Part shown: positions 3,360 through 61,296 of the stretch, in pieces
How the letters are laid out: every line of letters starts with the position of its first letter
Position numbering within the stretch: the stretch's first letter is position 1
Assembly (NCBI GenBank): GCA_017534425.1
Contig: JAFXWB010000007.1
Location: 17,550 to 81,549, forward strand
Length of the DNA: 64,000 bases
Direction of reading: 5' to 3'
Origin: Bacilli bacterium
GTDB lineage: Bacteria > Bacillota_I > Bacilli_A > RFN20 > CAG-826
Made by a program: the position numbers and the translations under genes
Notes under the pieces: model-generated
Database searches by the model: none
Seen by the model: the letters and a program-made list of their open reading frames with translations, nothing else
What the model was told of the DNA's origin: nothing

Positions 3360-3362
3360 TTT

Positions 3363-3674
3363 ATGATTAAAATTACGGCAAGTCGTAATAACGGAAAAAT
3401 TACAAGTTTAACCGTTAAAGGGCATGCTAATTCAGCCCCACATGGAGAAGATCTAGTCTGCGCTGCAGTAAGTTCAATCTTAGTGGGAGGATGTAACGCT
3501 CTTAAAGAACCTAATTGTTTTACAATTAAGTTGAATGAAGGAGACGCATCAGTTGTTGAAATTAGTCATGCTAATGAACACGATTACGAGGTTCTTGAAG
3601 TAATGCTTGTGCAATTCAAATCTGTTGAAGAGACAAGTCCAAAGTTCCTGAAAGTAATCGAGAAAGGAAATTAG
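3363..3674 (+). CDS. prp: Ribosomal-processing cysteine protease Prp (YsxB)
   Basis: Sits between rplU and rpmA. Carries the GHA....G.D.VCAAVS motif. Confidence 0.85.
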
Positions 3675-3676
3675 TT

Positions 3677-3958
3677 ATGTTATTTAAGTTAAATCTACAA
3701 CTCTTTGCTTCTAAAAAAGGTGTCGGTTCTACCAAAAACGGACGTGATTCAGAATCAAAAAGATTAGGTGCTAAATTAAGTGATGGCCAATTCTGCCATG
3801 CTGGAAGCATCATCTATCGTCAAAGAGGTACCAAAATTCTTCCAGGCATCAATACCAAACGTGGTGGAGATGATACAATCTTCGCAACAATTGATGGTAT
3901 TGTTAAATTTGAAAGAGTTGGTAAAAACAAAACTCGCGCTTCAGTTTACGCAAAGTAG
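3677..3958 (+). CDS. rpmA: 50S ribosomal protein L27 with N-terminal propeptide
   Basis: [26 protein letters not shown], a Firmicutes-type extension ahead of the ASKKG sequence. Confidence 0.95.
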
Positions 3959-3979
3959 TTTAAAAACCAAATTCAATTA

Positions 3980-4007
3980 AGACCACATAATTTTGTGGTC
4001 TTTTTTG
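3980..4007 (+). terminator. Intrinsic terminator after rpmA
   Basis: agaccaca-taattt-tgtggtct followed by TTTTTT. Confidence 0.8.
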
Positions 4008-4033
4008 TTATCTCGCGTATATAATGTATATGT

Positions 4034-14527: not shown

Positions 14528-14578
14528 TTATTAAAAAAGTGAATATTGTATAATATTCTTAGAAAAGAGGAGAACACT

Positions 14579-15382
14579 ATGAAAAAAAGATTATTCTTAG
14601 TCCCTTTAATTGGTGGTTTTTTACTTGCAAGCTGTAGTCTTGAAGATTTAATGTTTTGGAAGAAAAACAGCGAACCAGAGCAAGGAAAGAAAGAACAAGA
14701 ATTTAAACCTGACCCAGTACCACCAGAAGATACAACTGATCATTCACCAGTTTTAAAAGAAGAATTTGGCGATTATAAGTTAGCTAAAACAGTTGAAGAA
14801 GGAAAAAGATACATTTTAGGTGTCTATAGACACGAAACTGATATAATGAGATTTTTCAGTGGCGATTATCATAGAGATGCAAAAGGTTTCTATCCATACT
14901 ATCTTGGAACCTTAGCTGCAGATGAAACTACTGGAGCGGCAGAAATCGAAATTAAATTTAAAGAAGGTAGTACCACAGAATTTTCTATGCGAGTGTTTAC
15001 TACTGATACCGAACTTCCATGGAATGGAAAATACATCGGAGTTTATTCTGCAAAAGCAACTAGTAATGATGTTATTTCAATTGCCTTATTAGATTCACCA
15101 GATCAAACTGAATATTATTCTCCAGATAAACCAACTGTAAAAACTAATGCTACAAATGGTTATTGGAAATTCCATACTACTTTGAGAGATAAACAAAGAG
15201 ATGAAGACAGAACCGTTTATGCTCCTGGCGCCGACTATTTGCACGAAGAACTTGGCGACACTGAAGCCGTTCCAAAACTTCTCGGAACAAGAGGAAAATT
15301 TGAATCAATGGATTGTCAAACATATGAGATTGCCATTGATGGAATTGAATACGATCTCTCACACTTATACGAGCATAAGTAA
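14579..15382 (+). CDS. Lipoprotein of unknown function
   Basis: SD AGGAG lies before the ATG at 14579. Signal peptide with lipobox LLASC. The post-Cys linker resembles that of the upstream lipoprotein. Confidence 0.65.
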   Translation: MKKRLFLVPLIGGFLLASCSLEDLMFWKKNSEPEQGKKEQEFKPDPVPPEDTTDHSPVLKEEFGDYKLAKTVEEGKRYILGVYRHETDIMRFFSGDYHRDAKGFYPYYLGTLAADETTGAAEIEIKFKEGSTTEFSMRVFTTDTELPWNGKYIGVYSAKATSNDVISIALLDSPDQTEYYSPDKPTVKTNATNGYWKFHTTLRDKQRDEDRTVYAPGADYLHEELGDTEAVPKLLGTRGKFESMDCQTYEIAIDGIEYDLSHLYEHK

Positions 15383-26921: not shown

Positions 26922-28130
26922 ATGAGTAAAATCATCCTTCATATTGATCTCAATGCCTTTTTTGTGAGATGCGAAGAACTCAAAGATCCTACACTTGAAG
27001 GCAAACCAGTTATTATCGGAAAAGTCGGTCGTGGTGGTATTGTTTCAACTTGTTCATATGAAGCAAGAAAGTATGGTGTTCGTTCAGGAATGCCAACTTA
27101 TGAAGCTTTGCTTAAATGTAAAGACGCAATAGTTTTGGAATCAGATTTTCACTTTTATCATGAAAAATCGACACAATTCTTTGCTTTTTTAAAGAACTAC
27201 ACTAATTTGATTGAACCAGCATCAGTTGATGAATGCTTTGCGGACTTTACAAATGTTCTTAAAAATGAAAAAGAACCGCTTGTTTTCTTAAGAAACATGC
27301 AGAAAGAACTTTATAAAGAGACAGGTCTTAAGTGTTCAATTGGTGTTGCACCTACTAAATTTCTCGCGAAAATGGCGTCTGATATGAAAAAGCCTTTAGG
27401 CTTAGTTGTTATTCGTAAAAGAGACGCAAAGAAAATATTAGCGCCTTTAGCAATTGAAGATTTCTTTGGAATCGGCAAGAAAACTGCCCCACATTTAAGA
27501 GAACTTGGCATAAATACAATCGGTGATTTAATTAAGCGAATTGATGAAGAAGATCCTGTAATTAAGGAAGTTCTTGGTAAATTTTACTTTGTAATAAGCG
27601 ATTGGATTAACGGAAAAGGCGATGACGAAATTAATACTGAACCATTTGATCCGAAATCTATAGGCCACTCTACAACACTATTTAGTGACGCTCTTTCAGT
27701 TGAGGAACTAGAGAAACCTTTAAGAGAATTATCAGAAGAAGTAGCAAGGGATGCTCAAAAGAGAGGCAAGAAAGGAAAAACTGTTCAACTTGTCTTAAAA
27801 GACAACGAATTCAAAATTATTAATAGGTCCAGGAGACTCGGCCAACTTTCTAACAGTTTTGATGACATTTTCAAAACGGCATTGGAGCTTCTAAAAGAAA
27901 ACTATAACGGAAAACCGACTCGTTTAATTGGCGTTACACTCCAACAACTTCAAAATCCTAAGGAAACTTATGAGCAATTATCAATTTTTGATAATTATGA
28001 ACAAATTAAGGAAGAAAACGAGACGAGACTTCTCATCGGAGATTTAAATAGACAAATGCATAAATCAGTGTTTAAAACAGCCGCTGATCATTTAAGGGAG
28101 TCAGGAAATGACACTAAAAGAGGCAGCTGA
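26922..28130 (+). CDS. dinB: DNA polymerase IV (Y-family)
   Basis: HIDLNAFF, SVDE.F.D, and the C-terminal little-finger region. Confidence 0.9.
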   Translation: MSKIILHIDLNAFFVRCEELKDPTLEGKPVIIGKVGRGGIVSTCSYEARKYGVRSGMPTYEALLKCKDAIVLESDFHFYHEKSTQFFAFLKNYTNLIEPASVDECFADFTNVLKNEKEPLVFLRNMQKELYKETGLKCSIGVAPTKFLAKMASDMKKPLGLVVIRKRDAKKILAPLAIEDFFGIGKKTAPHLRELGINTIGDLIKRIDEEDPVIKEVLGKFYFVISDWINGKGDDEINTEPFDPKSIGHSTTLFSDALSVEELEKPLRELSEEVARDAQKRGKKGKTVQLVLKDNEFKIINRSRRLGQLSNSFDDIFKTALELLKENYNGKPTRLIGVTLQQLQNPKETYEQLSIFDNYEQIKEENETRLLIGDLNRQMHKSVFKTAADHLRESGNDTKRGS

Positions 28131-28986
28131 TTTATACTTTCAATACCTGAGAGTAGAAAAAGGTGTTTCTAATGAAACAATTCGTAACTATGATTACGAT
28201 TTAAAGATCTTTTTCGAAACCTTAAATAAGAAAACAACTAATGATTTGAAATCGGGAGATATCCAAGAATTCATTAGAATTCAAACTCAAAATATGCTCT
28301 CAATTCCAACAATTTTACGAAGAATTTCATCAACTAAGAATTTTTACCTTTTCTTAGAAAAGGAGCGAATTATTACTTTTCAAATCGATTCATTAGAAAA
28401 ACCAAAAGGCGCTAAAAAACTGCCTGTTTGTATCTCATTTGAAGAAGTAGAAGCTTTGCTTGAACAGCCAGATTTAAATAAACCTGAAGGTCAAAGAGAT
28501 AGAGCAATGCTTGAAGTTATGTATTCTTCGGGACTCAGAATCAGCGAGCTCCTCAACTTAAGAATGAATCAAATAAATTTTGAAAGAGGAATGGTTAAAA
28601 TCATTGGTAAAGGGAACAAAGAAAGAATCGTTCCTGTTGGCGATTATGCCTTGGAATACTTAGATAAGTATATTAATGATGGAAGAAGGAAAAATCATAA
28701 GAGAAATTCGGATTTCTTGTTCTTAAATCGTTATGGAGAGCCTGTTTCGAGAGTTTATTTCTTCTTACAGGTTAAAAAATATGCTGAACAAGCTGGTATT
28801 CAAGTAGAAATATCACCTCATACATTAAGACATTGCTTTGCAACTCATATGTTAGAAAATGGTGCAGAACTTAGAGCGGTGCAAGAAATGCTAGGGCACA
28901 CAAACATAGCGACAACTCAGATTTACACGAACATTTCAAGCAAGCGTATTCTTAGTGCATATGATTTGTATAGCAAACGGAAATAA
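28108..28986 (+). CDS. xerD: Tyrosine recombinase XerD/XerC family
   Basis: N-terminal SAM-like domain. Catalytic RISE...HTLRH.FATH...LGH..I.TTQIYT with the terminal Tyr. Adjacent to deoB, as ripX is in Bacillus. Confidence 0.75.
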   Translation: MTLKEAADLYFQYLRVEKGVSNETIRNYDYDLKIFFETLNKKTTNDLKSGDIQEFIRIQTQNMLSIPTILRRISSTKNFYLFLEKERIITFQIDSLEKPKGAKKLPVCISFEEVEALLEQPDLNKPEGQRDRAMLEVMYSSGLRISELLNLRMNQINFERGMVKIIGKGNKERIVPVGDYALEYLDKYINDGRRKNHKRNSDFLFLNRYGEPVSRVYFFLQVKKYAEQAGIQVEISPHTLRHCFATHMLENGAELRAVQEMLGHTNIATTQIYTNISSKRILSAYDLYSKRK

Positions 28987-29021
28987 AGTAAAATATTTGA
29001 CGGAAAGAAACGGAGAAAACT

Positions 29022-30218
29022 ATGAAGAAGTTTAAAAGAGTATTCGTAATCGTAATTGACTCAGTTGGTATTGGTGAAATGCCAGATGCTGAAAGATTTG
29101 GAGATAAAGGAACAAATACTTTTGTTCATACTGCTGAAAAATGCGGTGGACTTAATGTTCCGTTTATGAATTCTTTAGGACTAGGAGATCTCGCAAACAT
29201 TAAAGGAACAACAAAGGTTGAGCATCCACATGCTTACTGCGCAAGACTCCGTGAAGCATCAAACGGTAAAGACACAATGACCGGTCACTGGGAAATGATG
29301 GGAATTTATACAACAAAACCATTTATCACCTTTACAGATACAGGTTTTCCAAAAGAATTAATGGATGAACTTGAAGCAAAGACAGGTCACAAACTCATCG
29401 GCAATAAAGCTGCTTCTGGAACTGAAATTCTAAAAGAATTAGGTGAAGAACAAAAACGTGATAATTCACTTATTGTATATACTTCAGCAGACTCTGTTCT
29501 TCAAATTGCTGCACATGAAGAAACAACTGGTGTACAAGAATTGTACAGATGTTGTGAAATCGCTCGTGAAATTTGTATGAGACCTGAATATTACGTAGGT
29601 CGTATTATTGCTCGTCCATTCGTTGGCGAAGACAAAAATAGTTTCAAGAGAACTCCAAATAGACACGACATTGCTGTCTCTCCAAGTGGCACAACAACTA
29701 TGGATATTCTAAAAGAGAATGGTTATATGGTTTCCTGTGTTGGTAAGATTGCTGATATCTTCAATATGTGTGGCGTTGTTAAAACACAAAAAACAGTTTC
29801 TAATATGGATGGCATGGATAAAACAATTGATGAATGTAAAAACCATGATTTTGAAGGTTTATGCTACATCAACTTAGTTGAATTCGATTCTGAATATGGT
29901 CATAGACGTAATCCAATTGGATATGGAAAAGCTCTTGAAGATTTTGATGTGCGTCTAGGAGAACTCATGGAAGTTTCTAAAGAAGACGATTTAATTATTG
30001 TAACCGCTGATCACGGTAACGATCCAACACATACAGGAACAGACCATACTAGAGAAAAAGTTCCATTCCTTGCTTACAGCAAATCATTCAAAAATGGTAA
30101 GTATCTTGAAGAAAGAGAATGCTTCGCTGATATCGGCGCGACAATTCTTGAAAACTTCGGTTTAAAAAAGACTTCCAATCAAATCGGAAGTCCAATTAAA
30201 GAACTGCTAAACGATTAA
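29022..30218 (+). CDS. deoB: Phosphopentomutase
   Basis: [17 protein letters not shown] and ADHGNDPT motifs. Confidence 0.93.
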
Positions 30219-30805
30219 TCTAACTTAAATATTTTATGAGGAGAACGTTTGATGACGTTCTCTTTTTCTAACATAGTTAGAACTCGAGATAATGTCTCAC
30301 GTTTTAGATGAAGAATATCCGCTAATTCGGTAACGGTTCTATATTCAATTTCACCTTTGTTCTCATGCAAATAAAATTTGAATCGTTCTTCAGCGGATGA
30401 AAACGAAAGCATTTTAATAGTGGAATTAAGTTTCTTACCAAAGTTAGATTGAATGTTTAAATACATAAGTAAAAATTCTTTATTACTTTGTAATATGTGC
30501 TCTAAATTTTCTTTTTTGATCAAAACAATGGTGGAGTCTTTTAAAGAAACAACATCACCTTTATATGCTGGATTATCAGAAAAAATGAGGTTATTACCGA
30601 ACATTTCATTTTTATTTAGCACATTGAATATAACTTCTGTTCCTGAATAGTTCATAGAACTAATTTTAATCTGCCCAGAAACAACAATTACAACGTGAGT
30701 GCATAATTGTCCTTCCCTAAATAAAAACTCGCCTTTATTAAGCGTTTTTACTTCGAGAAACTTTCGTTCTTCTTTAGTTAAAGTCGATAAAATGTTGTTT
30801 TCCAT
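30215..30805 (-). CDS. Crp/Fnr family transcriptional regulator
   Basis: N-terminal cNMP-binding-like beta-barrel and C-terminal HTH ([20 protein letters not shown]). 196 aa. Confidence 0.8.
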
Positions 30806-30812
30806 ATAAATG

Positions 30813-30828
30813 CGTGATTCAAATCACA
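30813..30828. promoter_or_regulatory. CRP/FNR-type palindromic operator cGTGA-N6-TCACa
   Basis: cgtgattcaaatcaca lies in the divergent region between the Crp/Fnr gene and the ABC substrate-binding gene. Confidence 0.55.
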
Positions 30829-30882
30829 TATTAAGTATGCAATATAAAATATTATATTTCCACAAGAAAAGAGGATAGGCTT

Positions 30883-31809
30883 ATGAAAAAAGTGGTTCTA
30901 TTAAGTTTAATACCATTGGTATTGTGTGGATGTTCGAGAAAAAATAAATATAAAGATCTCCGCTTTGTTGTTCCAACAGGTGCTCCTGCAATTGCTATGG
31001 CAGCTTTTGCGGATTTAAATGGTTTTGAAACTGTTACAGATCCATCGACAATTGTTCCAATGATGGCTTCTGAACAAGTGGATGTTGCTGTTTTACCAAC
31101 TAATGTTGGTGTTACAGCGATTAACGCCAAAAAAGTTCCATATAAGATGCTTTGCACAATTACATTTGGTAATTTATACGTTGCATCAACAGGAAAAGAT
31201 GAAGATGGTGAAATGGATGCAGATGATTATATCGTCTCCTTCCAACAAGGTGCTGTTCCAGATAAAATCTTCCATTATGTCTATGGAACAGAATTAGATA
31301 GTGCTTTGCACTATGTAAGTGGTGCAGCTGATGCCGCGAAATGTCTTAAGACAGGCAAAAATTTGGCAGATGAGTCAAAAGATGTTGATTATGTATTCTT
31401 GGCAGAGCCAGCATTAACTAAAGTATTAGAAACAACTCCAACTGCAAGTGTTTATGCCAACTTGCAAGATCTTTATAAGACAAAAAGCGAAGGCTTAATG
31501 CTTACACAAGCATCTGTTTTTGTTCGTAGCGCACTTGAAGAAAACGTTGTTAAGAAAGCTATTTATAAGACAATTGAAGACTCAATTAATCATATGATTA
31601 AAAAGTCTGAAAATATTACAACTTACATGAATAAAGTTGATGAACCCGCAACTATTTTTGGTGTAGAACCTGAGTATGCAGTGAAAACAATGGACGCCGG
31701 AAATAAGATGGGTCTTGGTTGCAAATTGGCATCTGAAATTAAAGACGATATCAATAAATTCCTTACAATCTTTAATGTAAATCCAATCACTGATGAAAAT
31801 ATTGAGTAA
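30883..31809 (+). CDS. ABC transporter substrate-binding lipoprotein (SsuA/NMT1-like suspected)
   Basis: Signal peptide with lipobox LVLCGCS. Periplasmic-binding-protein-like sequence. Coupled to the permease. Confidence 0.6.
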   Translation: MKKVVLLSLIPLVLCGCSRKNKYKDLRFVVPTGAPAIAMAAFADLNGFETVTDPSTIVPMMASEQVDVAVLPTNVGVTAINAKKVPYKMLCTITFGNLYVASTGKDEDGEMDADDYIVSFQQGAVPDKIFHYVYGTELDSALHYVSGAADAAKCLKTGKNLADESKDVDYVFLAEPALTKVLETTPTASVYANLQDLYKTKSEGLMLTQASVFVRSALEENVVKKAIYKTIEDSINHMIKKSENITTYMNKVDEPATIFGVEPEYAVKTMDAGNKMGLGCKLASEIKDDINKFLTIFNVNPITDENIE

Positions 31810-32563
31810 TAAATATTTTATGTTTTTTCTCGGATTCCTATTTTTAATAGGAGTTTGGTTTTTGGTGTCTGCAATTATCGATTTAAACAACATGATTTTT
31901 CCTTCACCATACAACACCTTTAAACTCATGTTCGAGTTATTAGGCAAGAAATCAACGTATAGATATTTAGGATTCTCAATTATTCGTTTAATTATTGGTT
32001 TTTCTGTTTCATTTGCATTAGCATTCCTTTTAGGAATAATTGTTAATAATAGTGAGATTTTGTATAACTTCTTTACTCCAGTAATAACATTTTTAAAAGC
32101 TGCTCCGACTGCAACATTCGTATTTTTGTTTATTGTCTTGTTTGGAGGTAGAAACGCTCCAGCTTTTGTTGTGGTGGTGATGTGTTTCCCAATCCTTTAT
32201 GAATCAGTAGTCTCTGCTTTAAGATCAACAAGTCAATCGATGATAGATGCAGCTCAAATTGATGGTGCAGGTAAGTTTAAAACGCTTATGAGAGTACAAA
32301 TACCTTTAGGTATGCCATTCATATCACTCGGCTTATTATCAACGTTTGGTATGGCATTTAAGGTTGAAATCATGGCTGAAATAATTACCGGAATCACAAA
32401 AGGTGGTATTGGAACGATGATCAAAATTTCCAATTTGCTAGATGGAACAGACTTAACAGCGATGTTCGCTTACAGTTTGATGGCAATAATACTGGTGCTA
32501 ATCGTCTCAATTTGTGCTTCAATTTTTAAAAGTAAGGTCATCAATCCAAGGCTTGCAAAATAG
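31793..32563 (+). CDS. ABC transporter permease (SsuC/TauC/ThiX-like)
   Basis: Six TM helices and an EAA-like loop (IDAAQIDGAGKFKTLMRVQIPL). The start could instead be the ATG at 31820. Confidence 0.75.
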   Translation: MKILSNKYFMFFLGFLFLIGVWFLVSAIIDLNNMIFPSPYNTFKLMFELLGKKSTYRYLGFSIIRLIIGFSVSFALAFLLGIIVNNSEILYNFFTPVITFLKAAPTATFVFLFIVLFGGRNAPAFVVVVMCFPILYESVVSALRSTSQSMIDAAQIDGAGKFKTLMRVQIPLGMPFISLGLLSTFGMAFKVEIMAEIITGITKGGIGTMIKISNLLDGTDLTAMFAYSLMAIILVLIVSICASIFKSKVINPRLAK

Positions 32564-32610
32564 TGTAGAATTAAGGTCAATTAGTAGATATTTAGTAGTT
32601 TTATCAAGTA
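32564..32610 (+). repeat. TAGTAG element copy 2 (core 32582-32604)
   Basis: tgtagaattaaggtcaatTAGTAGATATTTAGTAGTTTTAT lies immediately after the permease stop. Confidence 0.7.
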
Positions 32611-32635
32611 AATTTGAATTAAAAATTAAAGAAAG

Positions 32636-32659
32636 AAGCGCACATTATGCGCTTTTTCT
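32636..32659. terminator. Bidirectional intrinsic terminator between convergent permease and nadD
   Basis: aagcgca-catta-tgcgctt flanked by A-rich and T-rich runs. Confidence 0.75.
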
Positions 32660-32752
32660 AATTTAAATTATTTCGATGTATTCTTTCTTTTTTGTTATTT
32701 GGTTAACATAATAGACATTATGCGAAGTTGTTATATAATTAAAAAGATCAAA

Positions 32753-33850
32753 TTATTTTAAATACATAGCAAAACATTCATCTGTAAGTCTATTTGTGAT
32801 ATCTTTTTTGGCTCCGAGTAAATATTTTCTGTTGTCTTCTAAGGTTGTTAAAAATCCAACTTTCCAATCTTTCATACAAGCGTTAATTAACCAAGTTGAA
32901 TCAAAATCTCTTGTTGGTTCAATCTTGTCACAAGCATAAACAACCATTCCAAGTGGAGACATATTTGCTTTTCCGGTACAGTGAAATTTGATTGCATCTA
33001 GAATTTCTGGATCATTAACTCCAAGTTTAGCTTTTGCTAAATATTCTCCAACAAATTGATGATACGCAAAACTTGGAATGTCTAAATATTCAGGATAATG
33101 CTTTTTCATAATTGCAATCATATTTTCGCTTTCTTTCTTCCAACCTTTGGCAATATCATGGATTAAAGAAGCGAAATAATATTTTTCTAAAGGTTCAAGT
33201 TTATTAACTTGGGCAACCTTTAAGGCAAGATTAGCAACTTCAATTGAATGGTTTAAACGCTTTTCAGGAATTAATTCTGCTATTTTCTTTACAAAGTAAA
33301 GACGATTATCCTCAATGTATTTTAATACATCAAATGGAAGATCAACGGACTTCATTTCTCTAATTGAACTTGATGAAACTGCACCGCTTTCTAAAAACTG
33401 TAAATCCAACATATTAAATTCTTTAATAATGTCTGAATCTAAATTAAATCCAGGCCTATTTACATACACAATACGCGCGATTTTAGAAAGTTCCTTGGCA
33501 TCTTTCCAATCCCTAAACTTTTCAACTTGATCAGCGCCAATTAAAAAATACAAATTATCTTCTTTATGAAGACTATTTAAATACTTAATAGTATCAATTG
33601 AATAATTAATTTCTGCATTGCTATTTAATTCATAGTCGCAAATTTCATATTCAAATTTTGCGTCTTTTAAGGCAATTTTGAGCATATCTAATCTTTGATT
33701 AGATGTTTCTTCTGGAGTTTTCCATCTTGGTGCTTTGGCTGGAACGAAAATAACTGCAGCGTTAAATTTCTCTGCAGCCTTTTCACTAATTCTAAGATGT
33801 CCGTTATGGACAGGATCGAATGTCCCGCCAAAAACAACAAAATTTTTCAT
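32753..33850 (-). CDS. nadD: Fusion protein: nicotinate-nucleotide adenylyltransferase NadD + HD-domain YqeK
   Basis: N-terminal GGTFDP.H.GH motif and a C-terminal HD domain (HSIEV...LIHDIAK). 365 aa as one frame. Confidence 0.85.
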   Translation of the reverse strand: MKNFVVFGGTFDPVHNGHLRISEKAAEKFNAAVIFVPAKAPRWKTPEETSNQRLDMLKIALKDAKFEYEICDYELNSNAEINYSIDTIKYLNSLHKEDNLYFLIGADQVEKFRDWKDAKELSKIARIVYVNRPGFNLDSDIIKEFNMLDLQFLESGAVSSSSIREMKSVDLPFDVLKYIEDNRLYFVKKIAELIPEKRLNHSIEVANLALKVAQVNKLEPLEKYYFASLIHDIAKGWKKESENMIAIMKKHYPEYLDIPSFAYHQFVGEYLAKAKLGVNDPEILDAIKFHCTGKANMSPLGMVVYACDKIEPTRDFDSTWLINACMKDWKVGFLTTLEDNRKYLLGAKKDITNRLTDECFAMYLK

Positions 33851-56675: not shown

Positions 56676-57848
56676 CTATAAATTACATGAATCGAAGAAT
56701 CTACGTTCGATTTTGGCATTTTCTTTCCTAAAGGAAAGGTTATTTAACAACTGATTGTAAGAAACAAACCCTGCATAATACATTACAAAGTGGAAAATAA
56801 CAAAGTTACATCCAATGTTTTGTGTCACAAACATCATCGCTACTGCAAAAGCAAAAGACAAAAAGATGTAAAAGATTTCTTTTATTCCTTCTTTAAACAT
56901 TAGTTTATCAGCCTTGAAGCTTGCCTCGATCGCCAAATCTTTTACTGAACTAGCATCTTTAAATGCTTGATTTTCAAGTTCGCCTATACGATTTTTAGTT
57001 TCTTCACCACTTTTTGAAAACATGATTAATTCTAGGAGTTTAAATAAAATTAAAGCTAATAGAACAAACACATTTCTAAAATCATTGAAGCAAAGCAAAA
57101 ATGTAACAGTAAACGCTAATAAAATCGATGCCAAAGTTTGACGATTGCAGGTGAAAAATTGTTTTTTAAATTCATTAAATTGAATGTACTTATCTTTAGT
57201 ACAATTTTTCTTTAATTCAAAGTATTTTGGAATATACTCCTTATCAAAAGTATAAACAAGTTTATAAAGAATACATTTTTCTGCTATTTGAGTGCACACA
57301 AACAGAACTAGAAATGCCAATGAAAATAAGAAGTTTTCACTCTTGTTGAGTAGATAAAAAGCCGCAATTAATAGACCTGCCGAAAATAGAGAAACTAATG
57401 AACTGAGTAAATTTAGTTTTGGAGAAATAACATGTTGTCTATATTTCTCAATTTTAATTACATTTTCAGGATTTTCTGCCTCCAGTACAACACATCTCCA
57501 TCTTCTTAAAAACTCATCTTTCTTCATTTTTACTACACCACGACCAGGGTCATAAATGATAAGACTCTTTTTCTTTCTTTTCTTCACCATAACAACGTGG
57601 TTATCGTCAATTAGAGTTAAAGATGGAGTTTTAATACAATCGAAATATTCTTTTGTGCAACCGCTTCCTTCTAAAGTTACTCCATAAGTTTTACTTATTT
57701 GCACTAAATCATCGAGACTATAATATTCGCGCTTAGTGGGCTTAGGAATAAAAAGATATGATTTGTCTTTAGCAAGTGTAGCCAAAAGCATTTTTAGTGA
57801 GGCAAAACCACAATCATGATCGTTGCCTTGATAGATAAAGTACTTCAT
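56676..57848 (-). CDS. C39 peptidase domain fused to a ~6-TM PCAT-like membrane domain, no ABC ATPase domain
   Basis: The start is taken at the ATG at 57848, 8 nt after SD GAAGGGGG. The catalytic set Q7/C13 (YQGNDHDCGFASLKMLL), His (DDNHVVMV) and Asp 16 residues later (IIYDPGRG) is present. Hydrophobic helices follow to the C-terminus at 390 aa. No Walker motifs. Confidence 0.75.
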   Translation of the reverse strand: MKYFIYQGNDHDCGFASLKMLLATLAKDKSYLFIPKPTKREYYSLDDLVQISKTYGVTLEGSGCTKEYFDCIKTPSLTLIDDNHVVMVKKRKKKSLIIYDPGRGVVKMKKDEFLRRWRCVVLEAENPENVIKIEKYRQHVISPKLNLLSSLVSLFSAGLLIAAFYLLNKSENFLFSLAFLVLFVCTQIAEKCILYKLVYTFDKEYIPKYFELKKNCTKDKYIQFNEFKKQFFTCNRQTLASILLAFTVTFLLCFNDFRNVFVLLALILFKLLELIMFSKSGEETKNRIGELENQAFKDASSVKDLAIEASFKADKLMFKEGIKEIFYIFLSFAFAVAMMFVTQNIGCNFVIFHFVMYYAGFVSYNQLLNNLSFRKENAKIERRFFDSCNL

Positions 57849-57996
57849 AAATACTTCCCCCTTCACTATATCTATCCACCCAAAAAATGACTTTCTGCTA
57901 TTTTGACCTTGTTTAAAATATTTTATAAATAAAATTTTTTAATATTTTTAGAGGTCGTAAAAAACAAAAAAGAACCATTTCAGATTCCTCTAGTTT
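57822..57996 (-). repeat. Copy B of the duplicated terminator/promoter/SD/start module (partner is 1708..1885)
   Basis: The reverse complement aligns with 1708-1885. The 29-nt identical run is at 57928-57956. Confidence 0.85.
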
Positions 57997-58102
57997 AATT
58001 GGTCAAATTATTTCATATTACATCTTGTTAATTTTTCTAGGACAATCTTAGAAATAAAGGTGTTTAATATTTCATTAAATATTGCTAAAATGATTAGTAA
58101 TT

Positions 58103-59662
58103 ATGGCTATAGAAAATAAAATAACAACATTTTTAAACAAAAGAACTTGGATTATTCCTTTGTTATTCGGACTTATGTGTCTATGTTTAGTCTCATCACT
58201 TCTCGGTGTTGAACTAAAAGGTGTAAGAAATATGGATCATTTCTTGACATTTAATACTGGCGCGGAACTGGCAGCAATATTTGCTGGGGTAATGGTAACG
58301 TTTTCGATATTGCCATCTTACAAAAGACAAAGTGGCTACACTCGAGTATTCGTTTCTTTAATCGCAGTACTTTGCTTTTTAATGGCATGCGATATCGGTG
58401 AAGCTCTAGTTGATAAGATTCCTGAATTAACTTGGTTAAATAAAACTTTTGCGACTCTTGTTTGGGCAAACGAAACAGCTGTTTGGTTCTTTTTCTTTGT
58501 TTATTGTACGCACGTATTAAAGAGCCAGGGAAAAGTAATTTCGATTTCTTATTTGATTGGTGTTATTACGCTTGTAATATTTGTTTTAATTCCTGTTGTT
58601 ACAGTCGGAAATCCACTTTATTTTAAAGTTATAGACGGAGTCTATTATCGTAAAGCAGCTGGTGATCACTACTTATGGTACATTTCTCGATTTCCATCAG
58701 TCATTTTTAGTGTTTTAACAATCATTGCTATTTTCCTTTCTAAAGAAAAAATTAGAACAAAAATTATTATTTCTATTTTTATGGGACTTCCACTCGTTGC
58801 AATGGGTTCAGGTGGATATAAAACAGGCGTTGCCGTTCAATATGTCGCAATGATGATGTCTGTTGTATTAATGTTTGCGTTCTTATTTTCTGATAATGAA
58901 AAAGATTTGTTCTCTACAAATAAAGAACTTGGTCTTGCAACCAATATTCAAAAACATATGCTTCCATCAATCTTCCCTGCTTTTCCTGACAGGAAAGAAT
59001 TTGATATTTTTGCATCAATGTCACCTGCTAAGGAAGTTGGCGGAGACTTTTATGATTTCTTCTTAATAGATGATTATCATCTAGGTCTTGTCATGGCTGA
59101 CGTTTCTGATAAAGGTATCCCTGCTGCTTTATTTATGATGGCATGCAAAATCATGGTTCAAAACTATGCAATGATGGGGAAATCACCTTCTGAAGTTTTA
59201 ACTTCAGTTAATAATCAAATTTGTCAAAACAATCAAGATGAAATGTTTGTAACAATTTGGCTTGGAATTTTAGATTTAAAAACCGGTATATTAACTGCTG
59301 CCAATGCTGGTCATGAAAAACCTGCCATCCAAAATGATGAAGGCAAATTTGAATTATTTAAGGACACTCACGGATTTGTTGTGGGTTGGTATAAAGGCGT
59401 TAAATATGTTGATTATCAAGTTCAACTTAAAAAAGGAAGTAAAATCTTCCTTTATACTGACGGAGTTCCTGAGGCCACTTCTGCTAATGGACAATTTACA
59501 CGTGAAAGAATGGTAAAAACACTTAACAAGTACCGTGATATGCAACCACAAGAAATTATCCAAAATATGAAAGATGATATTGATTTGTTTGTTGGTCAAG
59601 CTGATCAATTTGATGATATAACTATGTTATGTGCAGAATTTAAAGGTTACGATAATGAATAA
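58103..59662 (+). CDS. Multi-pass membrane sensor fused to a SpoIIE/RsbU-type PP2C serine phosphatase
   Basis: The N-terminal ~265 aa carry ~7 hydrophobic helices. The C-terminal domain has GGDFYDF, MADVSDKG, LYTDG and QFDDITML motifs. Confidence 0.85.
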   Translation: MAIENKITTFLNKRTWIIPLLFGLMCLCLVSSLLGVELKGVRNMDHFLTFNTGAELAAIFAGVMVTFSILPSYKRQSGYTRVFVSLIAVLCFLMACDIGEALVDKIPELTWLNKTFATLVWANETAVWFFFFVYCTHVLKSQGKVISISYLIGVITLVIFVLIPVVTVGNPLYFKVIDGVYYRKAAGDHYLWYISRFPSVIFSVLTIIAIFLSKEKIRTKIIISIFMGLPLVAMGSGGYKTGVAVQYVAMMMSVVLMFAFLFSDNEKDLFSTNKELGLATNIQKHMLPSIFPAFPDRKEFDIFASMSPAKEVGGDFYDFFLIDDYHLGLVMADVSDKGIPAALFMMACKIMVQNYAMMGKSPSEVLTSVNNQICQNNQDEMFVTIWLGILDLKTGILTAANAGHEKPAIQNDEGKFELFKDTHGFVVGWYKGVKYVDYQVQLKKGSKIFLYTDGVPEATSANGQFTRERMVKTLNKYRDMQPQEIIQNMKDDIDLFVGQADQFDDITMLCAEFKGYDNE

Positions 59663-60062
59663 TTACCAGGTACCAGCAAACGTCGAATTAATCAATAAGA
59701 TGATAGATCCTATCATTTCTTCTCTAGAAGAAATTGAAGTTGAACATAAAAAGATTTATCAAGTAACTCTAGCATTAGAAGAGATCTTTGCTAACATTTC
59801 TAAATATGCTTACCCTTCTGGTGAAGGGATAATCGATATATTTTACGAAATCAAAAAAGACGAAAAACAACTAAAAGTTGTTATTAAAGATAAAGGCACC
59901 GCTTTTAATCCGTTAGAGAAAGAGGATCCTGATTTAGCCGCTTCAGTTTCAGAAAGAAAAATAGGTGGATTAGGTATTTATATTGTTAAAAATATTATCG
60001 ATGATATAAAATATCAACGAATCAATAATGAAAATATATTAGAACTCATTAAACAATTATAA
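59655..60062 (+). CDS. RsbW/SpoIIAB-type anti-sigma serine kinase (HATPase_c)
   Basis: N-box EEIFANISKYAY, DKGTAFNP and GGLGIYIV. ~135 aa. The ATG at 59655 overlaps the phosphatase stop. Confidence 0.8.
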   Translation: MNNYQVPANVELINKMIDPIISSLEEIEVEHKKIYQVTLALEEIFANISKYAYPSGEGIIDIFYEIKKDEKQLKVVIKDKGTAFNPLEKEDPDLAASVSERKIGGLGIYIVKNIIDDIKYQRINNENILELIKQL

Positions 60063-60077
60063 TTGGAGGGCAAAATA

Positions 60078-60374
60078 ATGACTATTAAAGAAAAAAGAGA
60101 TGGAAATAAACTTGTTGTTAGTGTTGAAGGAAGAATTGACACTAATACATCACCAGAACTTAGCGAATATTTCCAACAACATCTTAAAGATGTTAAAGAA
60201 CTTGAACTTGATTTAGAAAATGTAAATTATGTTTCATCAGCAGGTTTAAGAACCATTCTTTTTGCCCAAAAAACGATGGATAAACAAGGCAAGATGGTTG
60301 TTTCACATGTTTGCAAAGAAATCATGGAAACATTTGAATTAACTTGCTTCACTGACATTTTAACAATTATCTAA
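60078..60374 (+). CDS. STAS-domain anti-sigma-factor antagonist (RsbV/SpoIIAA-like)
   Basis: 98 aa with the phosphorylatable-serine motif NYVSSAGL. The ATG at 60078 follows a GGAGGG SD. Confidence 0.82.
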   Translation: MTIKEKRDGNKLVVSVEGRIDTNTSPELSEYFQQHLKDVKELELDLENVNYVSSAGLRTILFAQKTMDKQGKMVVSHVCKEIMETFELTCFTDILTII

Positions 60375-60394
60375 TTTCTTATAAAATAAGAAAC

Positions 60395-60427
60395 AAAAAG
60401 AAGGCCGATTAATCGACCTTCTTTTTA
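60395..60427. terminator. Bidirectional intrinsic terminator between the STAS gene and rpsU
   Basis: agaaggccgat-ta-atcgaccttct hairpin flanked by A-run and T-run. Confidence 0.8.
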
Positions 60428-60436
60428 AATGCTTAA

Positions 60437-60610
60437 TTAGTAAGTTTTACGACGAGCCATCTCTGATTTGCGTTTTCTCTTCAAACCTTTTTTGAGATAG
60501 AATTCTCTTTTACGTGCTTCAAGAAGAACACCGGATTTGTTGACTTGTCTTTTGAAACGACGAAGAGCTTCGTCTAATTGTTCATTTTCTCTAACGACAA
60601 TTTTTGGCAT
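60437..60610 (-). CDS. rpsU: 30S ribosomal protein S21 (below the ORF-track length cutoff)
   Basis: Manual minus-strand translation gives [65 protein letters not shown] lies upstream. Confidence 0.9.
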
Positions 60611-60651
60611 TTTTTTCTCACTTCCTTTCGTACGTAACGGGAATAATTATA

Positions 60652-61296
60652 TTATTCTCCTTTGACAATTGCAACACCACATGATGCGCCAATACGAGAT
60701 GCACCAGCTTCGATCATTGCTTCGGCTTCTTGTTTGTTATGAATTCCGCCGCTTGCTTTGACACCAATATTTGGTCCGACTGCTGCTCTCATTAATCTGA
60801 CTGCTTCGATTGTAGCGCCGCATTTTGAGAAACCTGTAGATGTTTTAACATAATCTGCACCAGCTCTAACGCAAGCTTTTGAACATTCGGTAATTTCTTC
60901 ATCTGTTAATAAGCAGGTTTCGAGAATTACTTTTAGTAAAATCTTTCCACAAGCCTTTTTAACAAGTCTTACTTCGTCTTCAATATAAGCGTAATTATGC
61001 TCTTTAGCCATAGAATCGTTTAAGACCATATCGACTTCTGTAGCACCTGCTTTGATAGCAAGTTTTGCTTCGTAAGCTTTGCTTTCTGGTAATGTTGCAC
61101 CTAATGGGAAACCAACGACTGTGCAAACTTTGACATCTGTGCCTTTAAGTTCTTTTGCGGCTAGAGGTACAAAGCCTGGGTTTACGCATACGGATGCGAA
61201 ATGATATTCTTTTGCTTCTGCACACAATTTAATGATTGCTTCGGTTGAGGCATCTTGTTTGAGAAGGGTGTGATCAATCATTCTTGCGATTTCCAT
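60652..61296 (-). CDS. deoC: Deoxyribose-phosphate aldolase
   Basis: IDHTLLK, VCV.P and a Schiff-base Lys context (VKTSTGF). 214 aa. Confidence 0.92.

What the first reader, a model, noticed from the sequence alone, without database searches (positions are those of the whole stretch)
58103..60374. Partner-switching cassette without a sigma factor: multi-TM PP2C phosphatase, RsbW-like kinase, STAS antagonist
Seen: three coupled plus-strand genes.
- A ~7-TM N-terminal domain fused to a SpoIIE/RsbU-type PP2C (GGDFYDF, DVSDKG, TDG, DDIT).
- A 135-aa HATPase_c anti-sigma-type kinase whose ATG overlaps the phosphatase stop.
- A 98-aa STAS protein with the phosphorylatable Ser context YVSSAGL.

A strong bidirectional terminator follows directly. 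No sigma factor gene is present in the cassette or nearby. The only sigma factor in the window is housekeeping sigA.

Established: in Bacillus RsbU-RsbV-RsbW-SigB and SpoIIE-SpoIIAA-SpoIIAB-SigF, the kinase sequesters a sigma factor. Sigma-independent outputs are known in a few lineages, for example Bordetella BtrUVW.

Inference: the phosphatase-kinase-antagonist gene order, the membrane-sensor fusion and the missing sigma factor point to a non-canonical output in what looks like a reduced, wall-less genome.
Basis: partly seen in the sequence, partly recalled or inferred. Interest (0 to 1): 0.62.

Follow-up and report, generated by a model that had tools for sequence, protein, structure and literature searches.

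The report
Sigma-free protein switch linked to NRPS
Three coupled genes encode a membrane-sensor phosphatase, a small kinase and their shared phosphorylatable STAS substrate. No sigma factor lies nearby, and in related rumen bacteria the same trio sits in one operon with a small non-ribosomal peptide synthetase, which suggests it switches an enzyme rather than transcription.

Summary
Window 58103-60374 (+) encodes three proteins:
- an 8-TM SpoIIE-type PP2C phosphatase;
- a 135-aa RsbW-like kinase whose start overlaps the phosphatase stop;
- a 98-aa STAS protein with the acceptor Ser54.

A hairpin terminator follows. All catalytic motifs are intact and dN/dS is 0.06-0.18.

No sigma gene other than sigA lies in the 64 kb. 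Only one sigma-like hit turned up in the roughly 230 related loci fetched.

New findings:
- Phosphatase and kinase are fused in one ~651-aa protein in 75 of the 120 closest homologue clusters, including a syntenic orthologue.
- The Pfam-less TM domain also heads LytS-type histidine kinases.
- In rumen Ruminococcus, Clostridia and Bacilli genomes the same trio, in the same order, heads an operon with a one-module NRPS (A-PCP-C) and a carboxylesterase. A STAS gene lies directly upstream of that NRPS in 36 of 56 loci.
- Natural STAS+adenylase and MatE+kinase fusions exist.
- A rumen archaeon, which has no sigma factors, carries the same association.

Best reading: a sensor-gated phospho-switch whose STAS output acts on a non-sigma target, probably an NRPS-type enzyme. 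In this window the cassette is unlinked and its target is unseen. Whole-genome absence of alternative sigma factors and the "wall-less" claim remain untested.

The parts
58064..58091 (+). Promoter-like site (TTAATA, 16 nt spacer, TG-TAAAAT) about 12 nt upstream of the phosphatase ATG. No Shine-Dalgarno sequence precedes that ATG.
   Evidence: Consensus scan only. The number of such sites in the region does not exceed the shuffled control, so this is weak. Sequence read.
58103..59662 (+). Gene 1: 519-aa membrane-sensor PP2C phosphatase (8-TM domain, linker helix, SpoIIE-type PP2C).
   Evidence: ORF. Pfam SpoIIE E 9e-47. AF2 model pLDDT 82.5. Fold matches to RssB, Rv1364c, SiaA, RsbX and SpoIIE phosphatase domains. 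dN/dS 0.11-0.16.
58103..58960 (+). N-terminal sensor domain, residues 1-286. It has an amphipathic helix 2-13 and TM helices 17-39, 46-75, 78-103, 107-138, 144-166, 191-212, 217-241 and 244-286. The last helix runs on as the linker into the PP2C domain.
   Evidence: AF2 secondary structure. Hydropathy. No Pfam family. Only 31 representative clusters among 1.84 billion proteins, and these carry either SpoIIE or LytS-type His_kinase outputs.
58601..58672 (+). Predicted extracytoplasmic loop, residues 167-190, with a conserved beta-hairpin (PLYFKVIDGVYYRK). It is the only sizeable outside loop.
   Evidence: Strands 174-177 and 180-183. P171, Y173 and R183 are invariant in 67 homologues. The motif is also kept in the histidine kinases that share the domain. 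Its outside location is inferred from the positive-inside rule.
59072..59641 (+). PP2C (SpoIIE-family) catalytic domain, residues 324-513. Metal-binding Asp residues lie in GGDFYD, ADVSDKG, TDG and FDDIT.
   Evidence: Invariant columns D315, D318, D333, D453, D504 and D505.
59655..60062 (+). Gene 2: 135-aa RsbW-like GHKL Ser kinase. Its ATG overlaps the phosphatase stop (ATGAATAA). It is fused in frame to the phosphatase in most relatives.
   Evidence: Pfam HATPase_c_2 E 3e-22. RsbW and SpoIIAB NCBIfam models match far below their cut-offs. Best PDB sequence match is RsbW 6m36. Fusions are shown. N, G1 and G2 boxes are conserved.
60078..60374 (+). Gene 3: 98-aa STAS-only protein, preceded by a GGAGG ribosome-binding site.
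   Evidence: Pfam STAS E 3e-13. TIGR00377 61 bits, above the 53-bit cut-off. PDB matches 4hyl, TM1442 and RsbV. All of the 120 closest homologues are STAS-only proteins of 94-101 aa.
60237..60239 (+). Codon of Ser54, the predicted phospho-acceptor in YVSSAGLR.
   Evidence: Alignments to solved STAS proteins and to orthologues and paralogues. The motif Y[VI]SSAGLR is invariant in all 21 STAS genes compared.
60394..60427 (.). Intrinsic-terminator hairpin shared with the convergent rpsU gene. It has a 15-16 bp stem flanked by an A-run and a T-run.
   Evidence: 15 pairs, 5 G-C. (inverted repeat I5, 94% complementary).

Best explanation
The cassette is a self-contained phospho-switch gated by a membrane sensor.

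- Input. An 8-TM domain, mostly buried in the membrane, has one conserved outside hairpin and conserved in-membrane polar residues. Through its last TM helix and the linker it controls the PP2C phosphatase, as other N-terminal sensors control RsbU-type phosphatases.
- Core. The RsbW-like kinase phosphorylates the STAS protein on Ser54 and the PP2C removes that phosphate. Kinase and phosphatase work as one physical unit, because they are a single polypeptide in most relatives.
- Output. The only freely diffusing component is the STAS protein. I take STAS to be the output, as in SypA and HsbA, and I do not think a sigma factor is involved.
- Target. The family's conserved genomic partner is a one-module NRPS (adenylation, carrier and condensation domains) with a type-B carboxylesterase and often a MatE exporter. 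The most likely target is therefore an adenylating or NRPS enzyme that STAS binds in one phospho-state, giving post-translational control of a secreted small molecule.
- This window. The cassette has moved away from those genes. The target must lie elsewhere in the genome or have been replaced.

Shown here: domain identities, intact catalytic motifs, predicted topology, fusions, gene neighbourhoods, purifying selection.

Inferred: who phosphorylates whom, gating by the TM domain, STAS as the output, and the NRPS as the target.
For: - Domains and motifs.
- Purifying selection on all three genes in the unlinked lineage, dN/dS 0.06-0.18.
- Phosphatase and kinase are fused (~651 aa, PF07228+PF13581) in 75 of the 120 closest homologue clusters. 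Fused and split forms interleave on the tree, and the fused junction keeps the kinase's own N-terminal residues in frame. The syntenic orthologue L010 is fused.
- No sigma gene other than sigA in the window or in 8 relatives (+-10 kb). None in 4 more loci with Pfam calls. None in 80 PP2C loci. One edge hit (L127) among 80 NRPS loci.
- Same gene order (TM-PP2C, kinase, STAS) directly followed by A-PCP-C and the esterase in L006, L020, L138, L153, L156, L185 and L128 (L005 shows the same order with phosphatase and kinase as a single ORF), and in the complete genome of Ruminococcus sp. JL13D9 (L172), where a 347-aa ORF is inserted between kinase and STAS.
- A STAS gene lies directly upstream of A-PCP-C in 36 of 56 loci, or 21 of 42 after harsh de-duplication. 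The linkage survives rearrangement, with divergent arrangements in L008 and L013 and permuted ones in L127, L145, L188 and L190.
- Fusions: STAS+AMP-binding enzyme followed by a PP2C gene (L040), and MatE+HATPase_c_2 (L036). Pfam. A 589-aa ORF in Ruminococcus sp. JE7B6 (L152) is 69% identical over its full length to the L036 fusion.
- On the tree of 33 full-length TM-PP2C proteins, the Ruminococcus clade is entirely NRPS-linked and the window's clade is mixed. L008, which is NRPS-linked, is among the window's nearest neighbours.
- Identity to the window copy is STAS >= PP2C > kinase in every relative that has all three.
- The TM domain is shared with LytS-type histidine kinases, as expected of an exchangeable sensor module. 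Linker-mediated control of PPM phosphatases is described in PMC12143880.
- Methanobrevibacter ruminantium M1 has PP2C, STAS and RsbW-like kinase genes around its NRPS genes: PMC2812497. Archaea have no sigma factors (established knowledge).
- STAS-as-output precedents SypA, BtrV, RbaV and HsbA: PMC8256260 and PMC6482189.
Against: - The window itself holds no A-PCP-C, esterase or other adenylating gene (tblastn; Pfam). The same is true of its closest relative L001 and the syntenic L010 within +-10 kb. The NRPS link is therefore by family membership only.
- I could not read the rest of the genome. An alternative sigma factor or an NRPS elsewhere is neither shown nor excluded.
- Fused PP2C-kinase proteins can still sequester a sigma factor. 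CrsR binds RpoS (PMC6482189). I recall, but did not check here, that Rv1364c interacts with SigF.
- Gene adjacency cannot distinguish post-translational control of the NRPS from control of its transcription or of product export.
- No interaction or phosphorylation has been measured.
- Some family members sit in other contexts, such as a GT2/GH5 gene in Butyrivibrio (L080) and an acyltransferase in L004.
Confidence: 0.55

Rival explanations
1. Conventional but split partner switch. The RsbW-like kinase is an anti-sigma factor for an alternative sigma factor encoded elsewhere in the genome. Dephosphorylated STAS frees that sigma factor.
For: - The kinase's best named matches are RsbW and SpoIIAB models and the RsbW structure 6m36.
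- The STAS protein passes the anti-sigma-antagonist superfamily model.
- The fused REC-PP2C-kinase CrsR sequesters an unlinked RpoS (PMC6482189).
- One related locus (L127) has a sigma-like fragment next to its PP2C gene.
Against: - The RsbW and SpoIIAB equivalog scores are 28-46 bits against cut-offs of 135-155.
- No sigma gene lies in the window, in the +-10 kb flanks of 12 cassette loci, or in 80 PP2C loci.
- The kinase is tethered to a membrane phosphatase or to a MatE pump in most relatives.
- The same module surrounds NRPS genes in an archaeon, which has no sigma factors.
- The kinase is the least conserved of the three proteins.
Confidence: 0.15
2. The module controls something else at the membrane, such as lipid or envelope remodelling, polysaccharide synthesis or export, through STAS or the kinase. 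The NRPS association of relatives does not apply to this detached copy.
For: - The contexts of unlinked copies vary: a PlsC-type acyltransferase and a GNAT in L004, PAP2 and TMEM164 in L011, and a GT2/GH5 protein and a STAS+APH fusion in Butyrivibrio L080.
- STAS outputs are diverse in known systems (PMC8256260).
- The sensor is almost wholly intramembrane.
Against: - No recurrent alternative neighbour was found among the unlinked loci.
- The only recurrent partner in the family is the NRPS-esterase pair.
Confidence: 0.15
3. Chlamydia-like control of the housekeeping sigma factor. In a small genome with few sigma factors, the kinase or the STAS protein titrates SigA.
For: - sigA is the only sigma gene in the 64 kb and lies 7 kb away, in synteny with the cassette in both the window and L010.
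- The Chlamydia Rsb system has been reported to act on sigma-66 (PMC8256260).
Against: - The cassette is not syntenic with sigA in 10 other loci.
- The family is abundant in large-genome Clostridia.
- Nothing in the kinase sequence points specifically to SigA binding.
Confidence: 0.05
4. Relic. After separation from the NRPS operon the cassette is functionless and decaying, or it is a leftover of the sporulation module SpoIIE/SpoIIAA/SpoIIAB.
For: - The window's lineage has lost linkage to the NRPS genes.
- L002 and L003 have lost the adjacent STAS gene.
- The related orders of Bacilli have lost sporulation several times (PMC10868615).
Against: - dN/dS is 0.06-0.18, all catalytic motifs are intact, and reading frames are open in every relative.
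- Scores against the SpoIIE, SpoIIAB and SpoIIAA equivalog models are 33, 28 and 41 bits against cut-offs of 491, 135 and 115.
- The gene order and the 8-TM domain differ from spoIIE and the spoIIA operon.
Confidence: 0.05

Closest known systems
HsbR/HsbA (Pseudomonas aeruginosa PA3346/PA3347) and CrsR/CrsA (Shewanella oneidensis)
   Same: - One protein carries both a PP2C phosphatase and an RsbW-like kinase domain, and both act on a separate STAS protein.
- There is no co-operonic sigma gene.
- In HsbA the STAS protein itself is the output, binding FlgM or the cyclase HsbD according to its phospho-state (PMC6482189).
- Most relatives of the window cassette have the same PP2C-kinase fusion.
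   Different: - The input here is an 8-TM membrane domain, not a receiver domain fed by a phosphorelay.
- In the window the two enzymes are separate but translationally overlapped.
- CrsR's kinase domain does sequester a sigma factor (RpoS), so the architecture alone does not fix the output.
- The hosts are Firmicutes rather than Proteobacteria.
SypE/SypA (Vibrio fischeri), BtrU/V/W (Bordetella) and RbaV/W (Rhodobacter)
   Same: These are partner-switch modules with outputs that are not a co-encoded sigma factor. Unphosphorylated STAS (SypA, RbaV) acts on an unknown, non-sigma target (PMC8256260).
   Different: They have different domain orders and inputs (SypE is kinase-REC-PP2C). They are linked to polysaccharide, type III secretion or gene-transfer-agent loci, not to NRPS genes.
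PP2C, STAS and RsbW-like kinase genes around the NRPS genes of Methanobrevibacter ruminantium M1 (mru0066-0071, mru0512-0516)
   Same: - It comes from the same habitat, the rumen.
- It has the same association of serine phosphatase, anti-sigma antagonist, kinase and MatE pump with an NRPS.
- The STAS gene sits next to the NRPS gene.
- The authors proposed sensing and NRPS regulation, and a bacterial origin for the genes (PMC2812497).
   Different: - It was noted only as an annotation remark, with no mechanism.
- The NRPS there has two or four modules with a thioesterase, not A-PCP-C plus an esterase.
- I could not compare the sequences, so orthology with this family is untested.
RsbU-RsbV-RsbW-SigB and SpoIIE-SpoIIAA-SpoIIAB-SigF (Bacillus subtilis)
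   Same: The three protein folds and the chemistry are the same: a PPM phosphatase with an N-terminal regulatory domain, a GHKL Ser kinase, and a STAS protein with a phospho-Ser in the DSSG-like loop.
   Different: - There is no sigma gene in the operon.
- The gene order is phosphatase-kinase-antagonist, not antagonist-kinase-sigma.
- Scores are far below the equivalog cut-offs.
- The kinase is membrane-tethered by fusion in most relatives.
Rv1364c (Mycobacterium tuberculosis), PDB 3ke6
   Same: It is the closest solved structure to the fused relatives. A PP2C domain is followed directly by an RsbW-like kinase domain in one chain (Foldseek E 1.6e-16 over 361 columns).
   Different: - Rv1364c also carries PAS and STAS domains in the same chain and is cytoplasmic.
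- The relative orientation of the two domains differs from the model (rmsd 13 A).
MbtH-like proteins of NRPS clusters (functional analogy only)
   Same: They are small proteins encoded next to an adenylation enzyme and are needed for its activity (established knowledge). The STAS gene occupies the same position, 10-25 nt upstream of A-PCP-C, and is fused to an adenylase in L040.
   Different: The fold is unrelated. No binding between STAS and an A domain has been shown. This is an analogy to be tested, not a family assignment.

Membership tests
Partner-switching module (PPM phosphatase, GHKL Ser kinase, STAS antagonist) | SpoIIE/RsbU-type PPM domain with intact metal-binding Asp motifs | tested here: met
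   PF07228 E 9e-47. D315, D318, D333, D453, D504 and D505 are invariant. Fold matches to RssB, SiaA, RsbX and SpoIIE.
Partner-switching module (PPM phosphatase, GHKL Ser kinase, STAS antagonist) | RsbW/SpoIIAB-type single-domain GHKL kinase with N, G1 and G2 boxes | tested here: met
   PF13581 E 3e-22. E..N, DxG and GGLG motifs are conserved in 9 orthologues. Best PDB match is RsbW 6m36.
Partner-switching module (PPM phosphatase, GHKL Ser kinase, STAS antagonist) | STAS-only protein with a conserved phosphorylatable Ser in the loop before helix 2 | tested here: met
   TIGR00377 61 bits, above the 53-bit cut-off. Ser54 in Y[VI]SSAGLR is invariant.
Partner-switching module (PPM phosphatase, GHKL Ser kinase, STAS antagonist) | The kinase phosphorylates STAS and the phosphatase dephosphorylates it | not testable with these tools
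   This needs in-vitro phosphotransfer or Phos-tag assays. It is inferred from homology, operon structure and the fusions.
Canonical anti-sigma partner switch (RsbW-SigB, SpoIIAB-SigF) | A cognate alternative sigma factor gene, usually in the same operon | tested here: not met
   Only sigA is found in 64 kb. No sigma gene flanks the 12 related cassettes or the 80 PP2C loci. The rest of the genome was not readable.
Canonical anti-sigma partner switch (RsbW-SigB, SpoIIAB-SigF) | Scores above the curated equivalog cut-offs for RsbW, SpoIIAB, SpoIIAA or SpoIIE | tested here: not met
   RsbW 46 bits (cut-off 145), SpoIIAB 28 (135), SpoIIAA 41 (115), SpoIIE 33 (491).
Canonical anti-sigma partner switch (RsbW-SigB, SpoIIAB-SigF) | The kinase binds and inhibits a sigma factor | not testable with these tools
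   This needs a pull-down or two-hybrid assay.
HsbR/CrsR-type bifunctional PP2C-kinase with a separate STAS protein | PP2C and kinase domains in one polypeptide | tested here: not met
   In the window they are two genes in different frames with an 8-nt overlap. In 75 of 120 homologue clusters, and in the syntenic orthologue L010, they are one protein.
HsbR/CrsR-type bifunctional PP2C-kinase with a separate STAS protein | N-terminal receiver domain as the input | tested here: not met
   There is no Response_reg match. The N-terminus is an 8-TM domain.
Rumen NRPS-linked TM-PP2C, kinase and STAS family (defined here) | Full-length homology including the 8-TM domain, and the same gene order (PP2C, kinase, STAS) | tested here: met
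   40-43% identity over nearly the full length (query residues 3-16 to 515-519) to the Ruminococcus copies, and 54-70% to the NRPS-linked Bacilli copies (L005, L006, L008, L013). The window lies inside this family on the tree.
Rumen NRPS-linked TM-PP2C, kinase and STAS family (defined here) | Adjacent A-PCP-C NRPS and type-B carboxylesterase | tested here: not met
   There is no A-PCP-C or esterase in the 64-kb window. The pair is present next to the cassette in L005, L006, L008, L013, L020 and L036 and in many Ruminococcus loci.
Rumen NRPS-linked TM-PP2C, kinase and STAS family (defined here) | An A-PCP-C operon elsewhere in the same genome | not testable with these tools
The source genome is not available beyond the window.

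The most novel reading that the evidence does not exclude
This family is a new kind of partner switch whose output is an enzyme rather than transcription. Phospho-regulated STAS binds the adenylation or carrier part of a one-module NRPS, much as a switchable MbtH-like partner would. An 8-TM sensor, sometimes together with a kinase fused to the MatE exporter, reports membrane or product status. Synthesis and export of a rumen small molecule would then be feedback-controlled at the protein level, in bacteria and, after gene transfer, in a methanogen. The window's copy would control an unlinked NRPS or adenylase in the same way.
Probability: 0.3. Interest if true: 0.8.

Novelty: new variant of a known kind. 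Interest (0 to 1): 0.62.

Why it matters
Partner switches are textbook sigma-factor regulators, and the few sigma-independent ones have unknown or one-off targets. Here a large, coherent family from rumen Firmicutes offers a concrete, testable non-sigma target: a one-module NRPS with an esterase and an exporter.

- The link is supported by conserved operons, by rearranged but retained linkage, and by two independent natural fusions.
- The family includes complete genomes deposited under strain names (Ruminococcus sp. JL13D9 and JE7B6), where experiments may be possible.
- It would give a first example of post-translational, phosphorylation-dependent control of non-ribosomal synthesis by a STAS protein.
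- It would explain why an archaeon keeps 'anti-sigma' genes.
- It adds an undescribed 8-TM sensor domain that is shared between PPM phosphatases and LytS-type histidine kinases.

For annotation, it warns that 'anti-sigma factor' and 'anti-sigma antagonist' labels in these genomes are probably misleading.

Tried and rejected
- N-terminal domain. Pfam at E<=10 gave only a chance MerC match. Foldseek against the PDB matched only the PP2C half, or PP2C plus kinase for the fused model, so there is no structural analogue for the TM domain.
- LytS-type kinase next to the cassette in L002 and L003. It does not share the TM domain (BLASTP E 0.025).
- Sporulation-relic idea. Rejected on equivalog scores and gene order.
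- RNA elements and repeats. Rfam found nothing in the whole window. Repeats in 57500-60800 are chance-level apart from the terminator.
- Foreign origin. The GC content of the cassette (0.325) matches its surroundings.
- Expression. One bovine metatranscriptome holds a 246-nt contig inside the phosphatase gene at low depth, and DNA carry-over cannot be excluded. This says nothing about co-transcription.
- STAS fusion partners. All of the 120 closest STAS homologues are STAS-only. Fusions appeared only in more distant loci.
- Whole-genome questions (alternative sigma factors, or an NRPS elsewhere in the unlinked genomes).
  - The motif scan for the NRPS also hit its limit and did not list the assemblies of L001-L004 or L007.
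  - Both questions therefore stay open.
- Wall-less claim. The window has no peptidoglycan genes and no mreBCD after radC. That is 64 kb of housekeeping genes and proves nothing. [quoted passage not shown]

Full report
**What is in the window**

Region 58103-60374 carries three plus-strand genes.

Gene 1 (58103-59662, 519 aa) ends in a SpoIIE-family PP2C domain.
- Pfam matches residues 324-513 with E 9e-47.
- The Asp-bearing motifs GGDFYD, ADVSDKG, TDG and FDDIT are invariant in 67 homologues.
- The N-terminal 290 residues match no Pfam family even at E 10.

An AlphaFold2 model of gene 1 (pLDDT 82.5) shows the following.
- There is a short amphipathic helix and then eight TM helices.
- The last helix (244-286) continues as the linker into the phosphatase.
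- Lys and Arg clusters on alternate loops fit an N-in, C-in topology. This is an inference from the positive-inside rule.
- The only sizeable outside loop (167-190) forms a conserved beta-hairpin, PLYFxVxxGxYxR.

Gene 2 (59655-60062, 135 aa) is a single-domain GHKL kinase.
- Pfam HATPase_c_2 matches with E 3e-22.
- Its ATG lies in ATGAATAA, which overlaps the phosphatase stop.
- N, G1 and G2 boxes are intact.

Gene 3 (60078-60374, 98 aa) is a STAS-only protein.
- It passes the anti-sigma-antagonist superfamily model at 61 bits against a 53-bit cut-off.
- Ser54 in YVSSAGLR aligns with the phospho-acceptor loop of solved STAS proteins.

A 15-16 bp hairpin with A and T runs at 60394-60427 closes the operon and also serves the convergent rpsU gene.

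**Surroundings**

- The window is ordinary housekeeping DNA. It carries ruvX, greA, radC, obg, nadE, ruvAB, recJ, relA, hisS, aspS, tkt, nusB, xseA, dxs, dinB, xerD, topoisomerase IV, plsY, efp, ispG, ispH, sigA, dnaG, era, cdd and ybeY.
- It comes from an uncultured rumen or gut member of the Bacilli. The relatives are MAGs labelled Bacilli, Bacillales or Erysipelotrichaceae, and the sequence occurs in bovine and goat gut metagenomes.
- A search with the sigA core against every reading frame finds only sigA.
- There is no RNA family and no unusual repeat.

**Relatives: the cassette is autonomous, and phosphatase and kinase are one unit**

- Eight species-level relatives (55-77% identity) carry the cassette in unrelated neighbourhoods.
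- In four of them the phosphatase and kinase are one 651-aa reading frame.
- Among the 120 closest homologue clusters, 75 are fused and 42 are split.
- The two states interleave on a tree. The junction differs by a small indel that keeps the kinase's own N-terminal residues in frame (...FKGYSNMINYQVPANV versus ...FKGYDNE* / MNNYQVPANV).
- A fused copy sits in exactly the window's synteny, from ispH and sigA through ybeY and the C39 gene, then the cassette, then rpsU, deoC and mtaB (L010).
- The AF2 model of a fused relative is confident (pLDDT 85.7). Its best solved counterpart is the RsbU-RsbW two-domain crystal structure of Rv1364c.
- All three genes are under purifying selection, with dN/dS 0.06-0.18.
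- In every genome that has all three, identity to the window copy is STAS >= PP2C > kinase.

**The sensor domain**

- An exhaustive profile-free search of 1.84 billion representatives with residues 1-270 found only 31 clusters.
- Of the 17 longer hits scanned with Pfam (shorter ones were left out), nine carry SpoIIE, three of them with the kinase as well. Four are LytS-type histidine kinases (PF06580) with the same TM domain and the same hairpin motif. Three are spurious repeat proteins.
- A rare, undescribed membrane domain is thus used as an exchangeable input for two kinds of transmitter.
- This fits the linker-mediated control proposed for PPM phosphatases, histidine kinases and cyclases (PMC12143880).

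**Where is the output?**

No sigma gene flanks any cassette.
- 12 loci were checked at +-10 kb, four of them with precomputed Pfam calls.
- 80 further PP2C loci in rumen Clostridia were also checked.

The recurrent neighbour is instead a ~995-aa one-module NRPS (AMP-binding, PP-binding, Condensation). Its closest solved relative is linear gramicidin synthase. A ~556-aa type-B carboxylesterase follows it.

The arrangements found are these.
- The NRPS follows the STAS gene by about 17 nt in L005, L006 and L020.
- It is divergent to the cassette in L008 and L013.
- In eight further Bacilli genomes a STAS paralogue that keeps Y[VI]SSAGLR heads the NRPS-esterase operon.
- A scan for the NRPS's distinctive C-domain motif returned at least 120 loci, mostly Ruminococcus, including two complete genomes.
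- Of 56 loci with upstream sequence, 36 have a STAS gene directly upstream. After harsh de-duplication across all loci the figure is 21 of 42.
- Several loci show the full order TM-PP2C, kinase, STAS, A-PCP-C, esterase, which is the window's gene order extended (L138, L153, L156, L185, L128). Ruminococcus sp. JL13D9 (L172) has the same order with an extra 347-aa ORF between kinase and STAS.
- Permuted arrangements keep the linkage (L127, L145, L188, L190).
- Only one of these loci has a sigma-like fragment (L127).

Two natural fusions tie the parts together.
- L040 encodes STAS fused to an AMP-binding enzyme, followed by a PP2C gene.
- L036 encodes a MatE exporter fused to the RsbW-like kinase. 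Ruminococcus sp. JE7B6 (L152) carries a 69%-identical 589-aa ORF in the same position.

A Blautia locus puts STAS in front of a C-A-T-R NRPS, with TM-PP2C, kinase and an A-T protein behind it.

On a tree of 33 full-length TM-PP2C proteins the Ruminococcus clade is entirely NRPS-linked. The window's Bacilli clade is mixed, and the NRPS-linked L008 is among the window's nearest neighbours. Linkage is thus the likely ancestral state, and the window's copy is a detached one.

**Prior knowledge**

- Sigma-independent STAS outputs are known: SypA, BtrV, RbaV and HsbA (PMC8256260; PMC6482189).
- Fused REC-PP2C-kinase proteins are known with both kinds of output. HsbR works through STAS, while CrsR sequesters RpoS. 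Fusion alone therefore does not decide the output.
- The NRPS association has one published precedent. In the genome paper of the rumen methanogen Methanobrevibacter ruminantium M1, serine phosphatases, an anti-sigma antagonist, an RsbW-like kinase and MatE pumps surround the NRPS genes. The authors suggested sensing and NRPS regulation (PMC2812497).
- Archaea have no sigma factors (established knowledge), so that instance cannot work through one.
- Full-text searches found no mechanistic study of this link.

**Mechanism proposed**

1. The 8-TM domain senses a membrane-associated cue. This could be the lipophilic product or precursor, but that is speculation.
2. The sensor sets PP2C activity through the TM8-linker helix.
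3. The kinase phosphorylates STAS Ser54 and the PP2C reverses it.
4. STAS, the only diffusible part, binds an adenylating or NRPS enzyme in one phospho-state and so gates synthesis. In some genomes the kinase sits on the exporter.

In the window the target is not within 64 kb and must be sought elsewhere. I put 0.55 on this overall reading. That breaks down as about 0.9 for the phospho-switch core, about 0.7 for a non-sigma output, and about 0.4 for an NRPS-type target in this particular genome.

**Rivals**

- A split canonical anti-sigma system (0.15).
- Another membrane or envelope output (0.15).
- SigA titration as reported in Chlamydia (0.05).
- A relic (0.05). This is disfavoured by selection, by intact motifs, and by SpoIIE, SpoIIAB and SpoIIAA scores far below their cut-offs.

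**Limits**

- The genome beyond the window was not readable.
- No multimer prediction or experiment was possible.
- The RNA evidence is negligible.
- The 'reduced, wall-less' premise could not be tested. It is also unnecessary, because the family thrives in walled Clostridia.

**Verdict**

This is a real, well-preserved cassette. It is a new variant of the partner-switch theme, with a new sensor domain and a concrete, testable non-sigma target suggested by comparative genomics. Interest is 0.62.

Noticed in passing
window 28000-33000 (whole-window profile): Gene orientation flips from all-plus (1-30 kb) to nearly all-minus (32-64 kb). Cumulative GC skew peaks at about 31 kb. A XerD-type recombinase gene lies at 28108-28986. 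The window probably spans the replication terminus.
   Followed up: no
window 56676-57866 (-): The divergent neighbour of the cassette is a 396-aa protein with an N-terminal C39 peptidase domain and a TM region but no ABC ATPase domain. Its best NCBIfam match, far below the cut-off, is the Mbov_0121 family peptidase domain-containing ABC transporter model. It is syntenic in L010.
   Followed up: partly
window 7848-10532, 12235-14481, 14546-15382, 30883-31809 (+): Four long ORFs (894, 748, 278 and 308 aa) lie among housekeeping genes and have no Pfam match at E 1e-4.
   Followed up: no
window 2014-4034: radC is followed by small ORFs and then obg. No ORF of 120 aa or more lies between them, so a full-length mreB, mreC or minD is not there. 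No peptidoglycan gene was seen in the ORFs of 120 aa or more that were scanned with Pfam, while the MEP pathway genes dxs, ispG and ispH are present. This is compatible with a wall-less host but does not prove one.
   Followed up: partly
L036:6515-8284 and L152:141-1910: A 589-aa MatE efflux protein is fused at its C-terminus to an RsbW-like HATPase_c_2 kinase. It lies between TM-PP2C and STAS-NRPS in a Ruminococcus MAG (Pfam). A 69%-identical 589-aa ORF sits directly upstream of STAS in the complete genome of Ruminococcus sp. JE7B6.
   Followed up: partly
L040:3940-5817: A 625-aa protein has an N-terminal STAS domain that keeps the TSAGL Ser, fused to AMP-binding and AMP-binding_C domains. 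A SpoIIE-type PP2C gene follows directly. The host is a 58% GC Clostridiales MAG.
   Followed up: partly
L013:11970-12564: Two tandem 98-aa STAS genes follow the kinase. They are 78% and 38% identical to the window STAS, recalling RsbV1 and RsbV2 of Chlamydia. The NRPS gene is divergent upstream.
   Followed up: partly
L002:2824-4789 and L003:10001-11966: Phosphatase and kinase are present but no STAS gene is in the locus. A LytS-type histidine kinase and a response regulator are divergent upstream. The STAS substrate may be the one that heads the NRPS operon elsewhere in those genomes.
   Followed up: partly
L080:4286-5515 (Butyrivibrio sp. XPD2002): A STAS domain is fused to an APH-type phosphotransferase domain. 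It lies next to a GH5/GT2 protein, an RsbW-like kinase and a TM-PP2C gene. This is a different context for the same sensor-phosphatase family.
   Followed up: no
L127:28-279 (-): This is the only sigma-70-like fragment seen next to any member of the family. It is 39% identical to sigA region 2 and lies at the locus edge, downstream of the PP2C gene of an NRPS-linked cluster.
   Followed up: no
window 58086-58105: The phosphatase ATG has no Shine-Dalgarno sequence. An extended -10-like TG-TAAAAT ends only 12 nt upstream, which hints at a very short or absent leader. The STAS gene, by contrast, has a perfect GGAGG.
   Followed up: no
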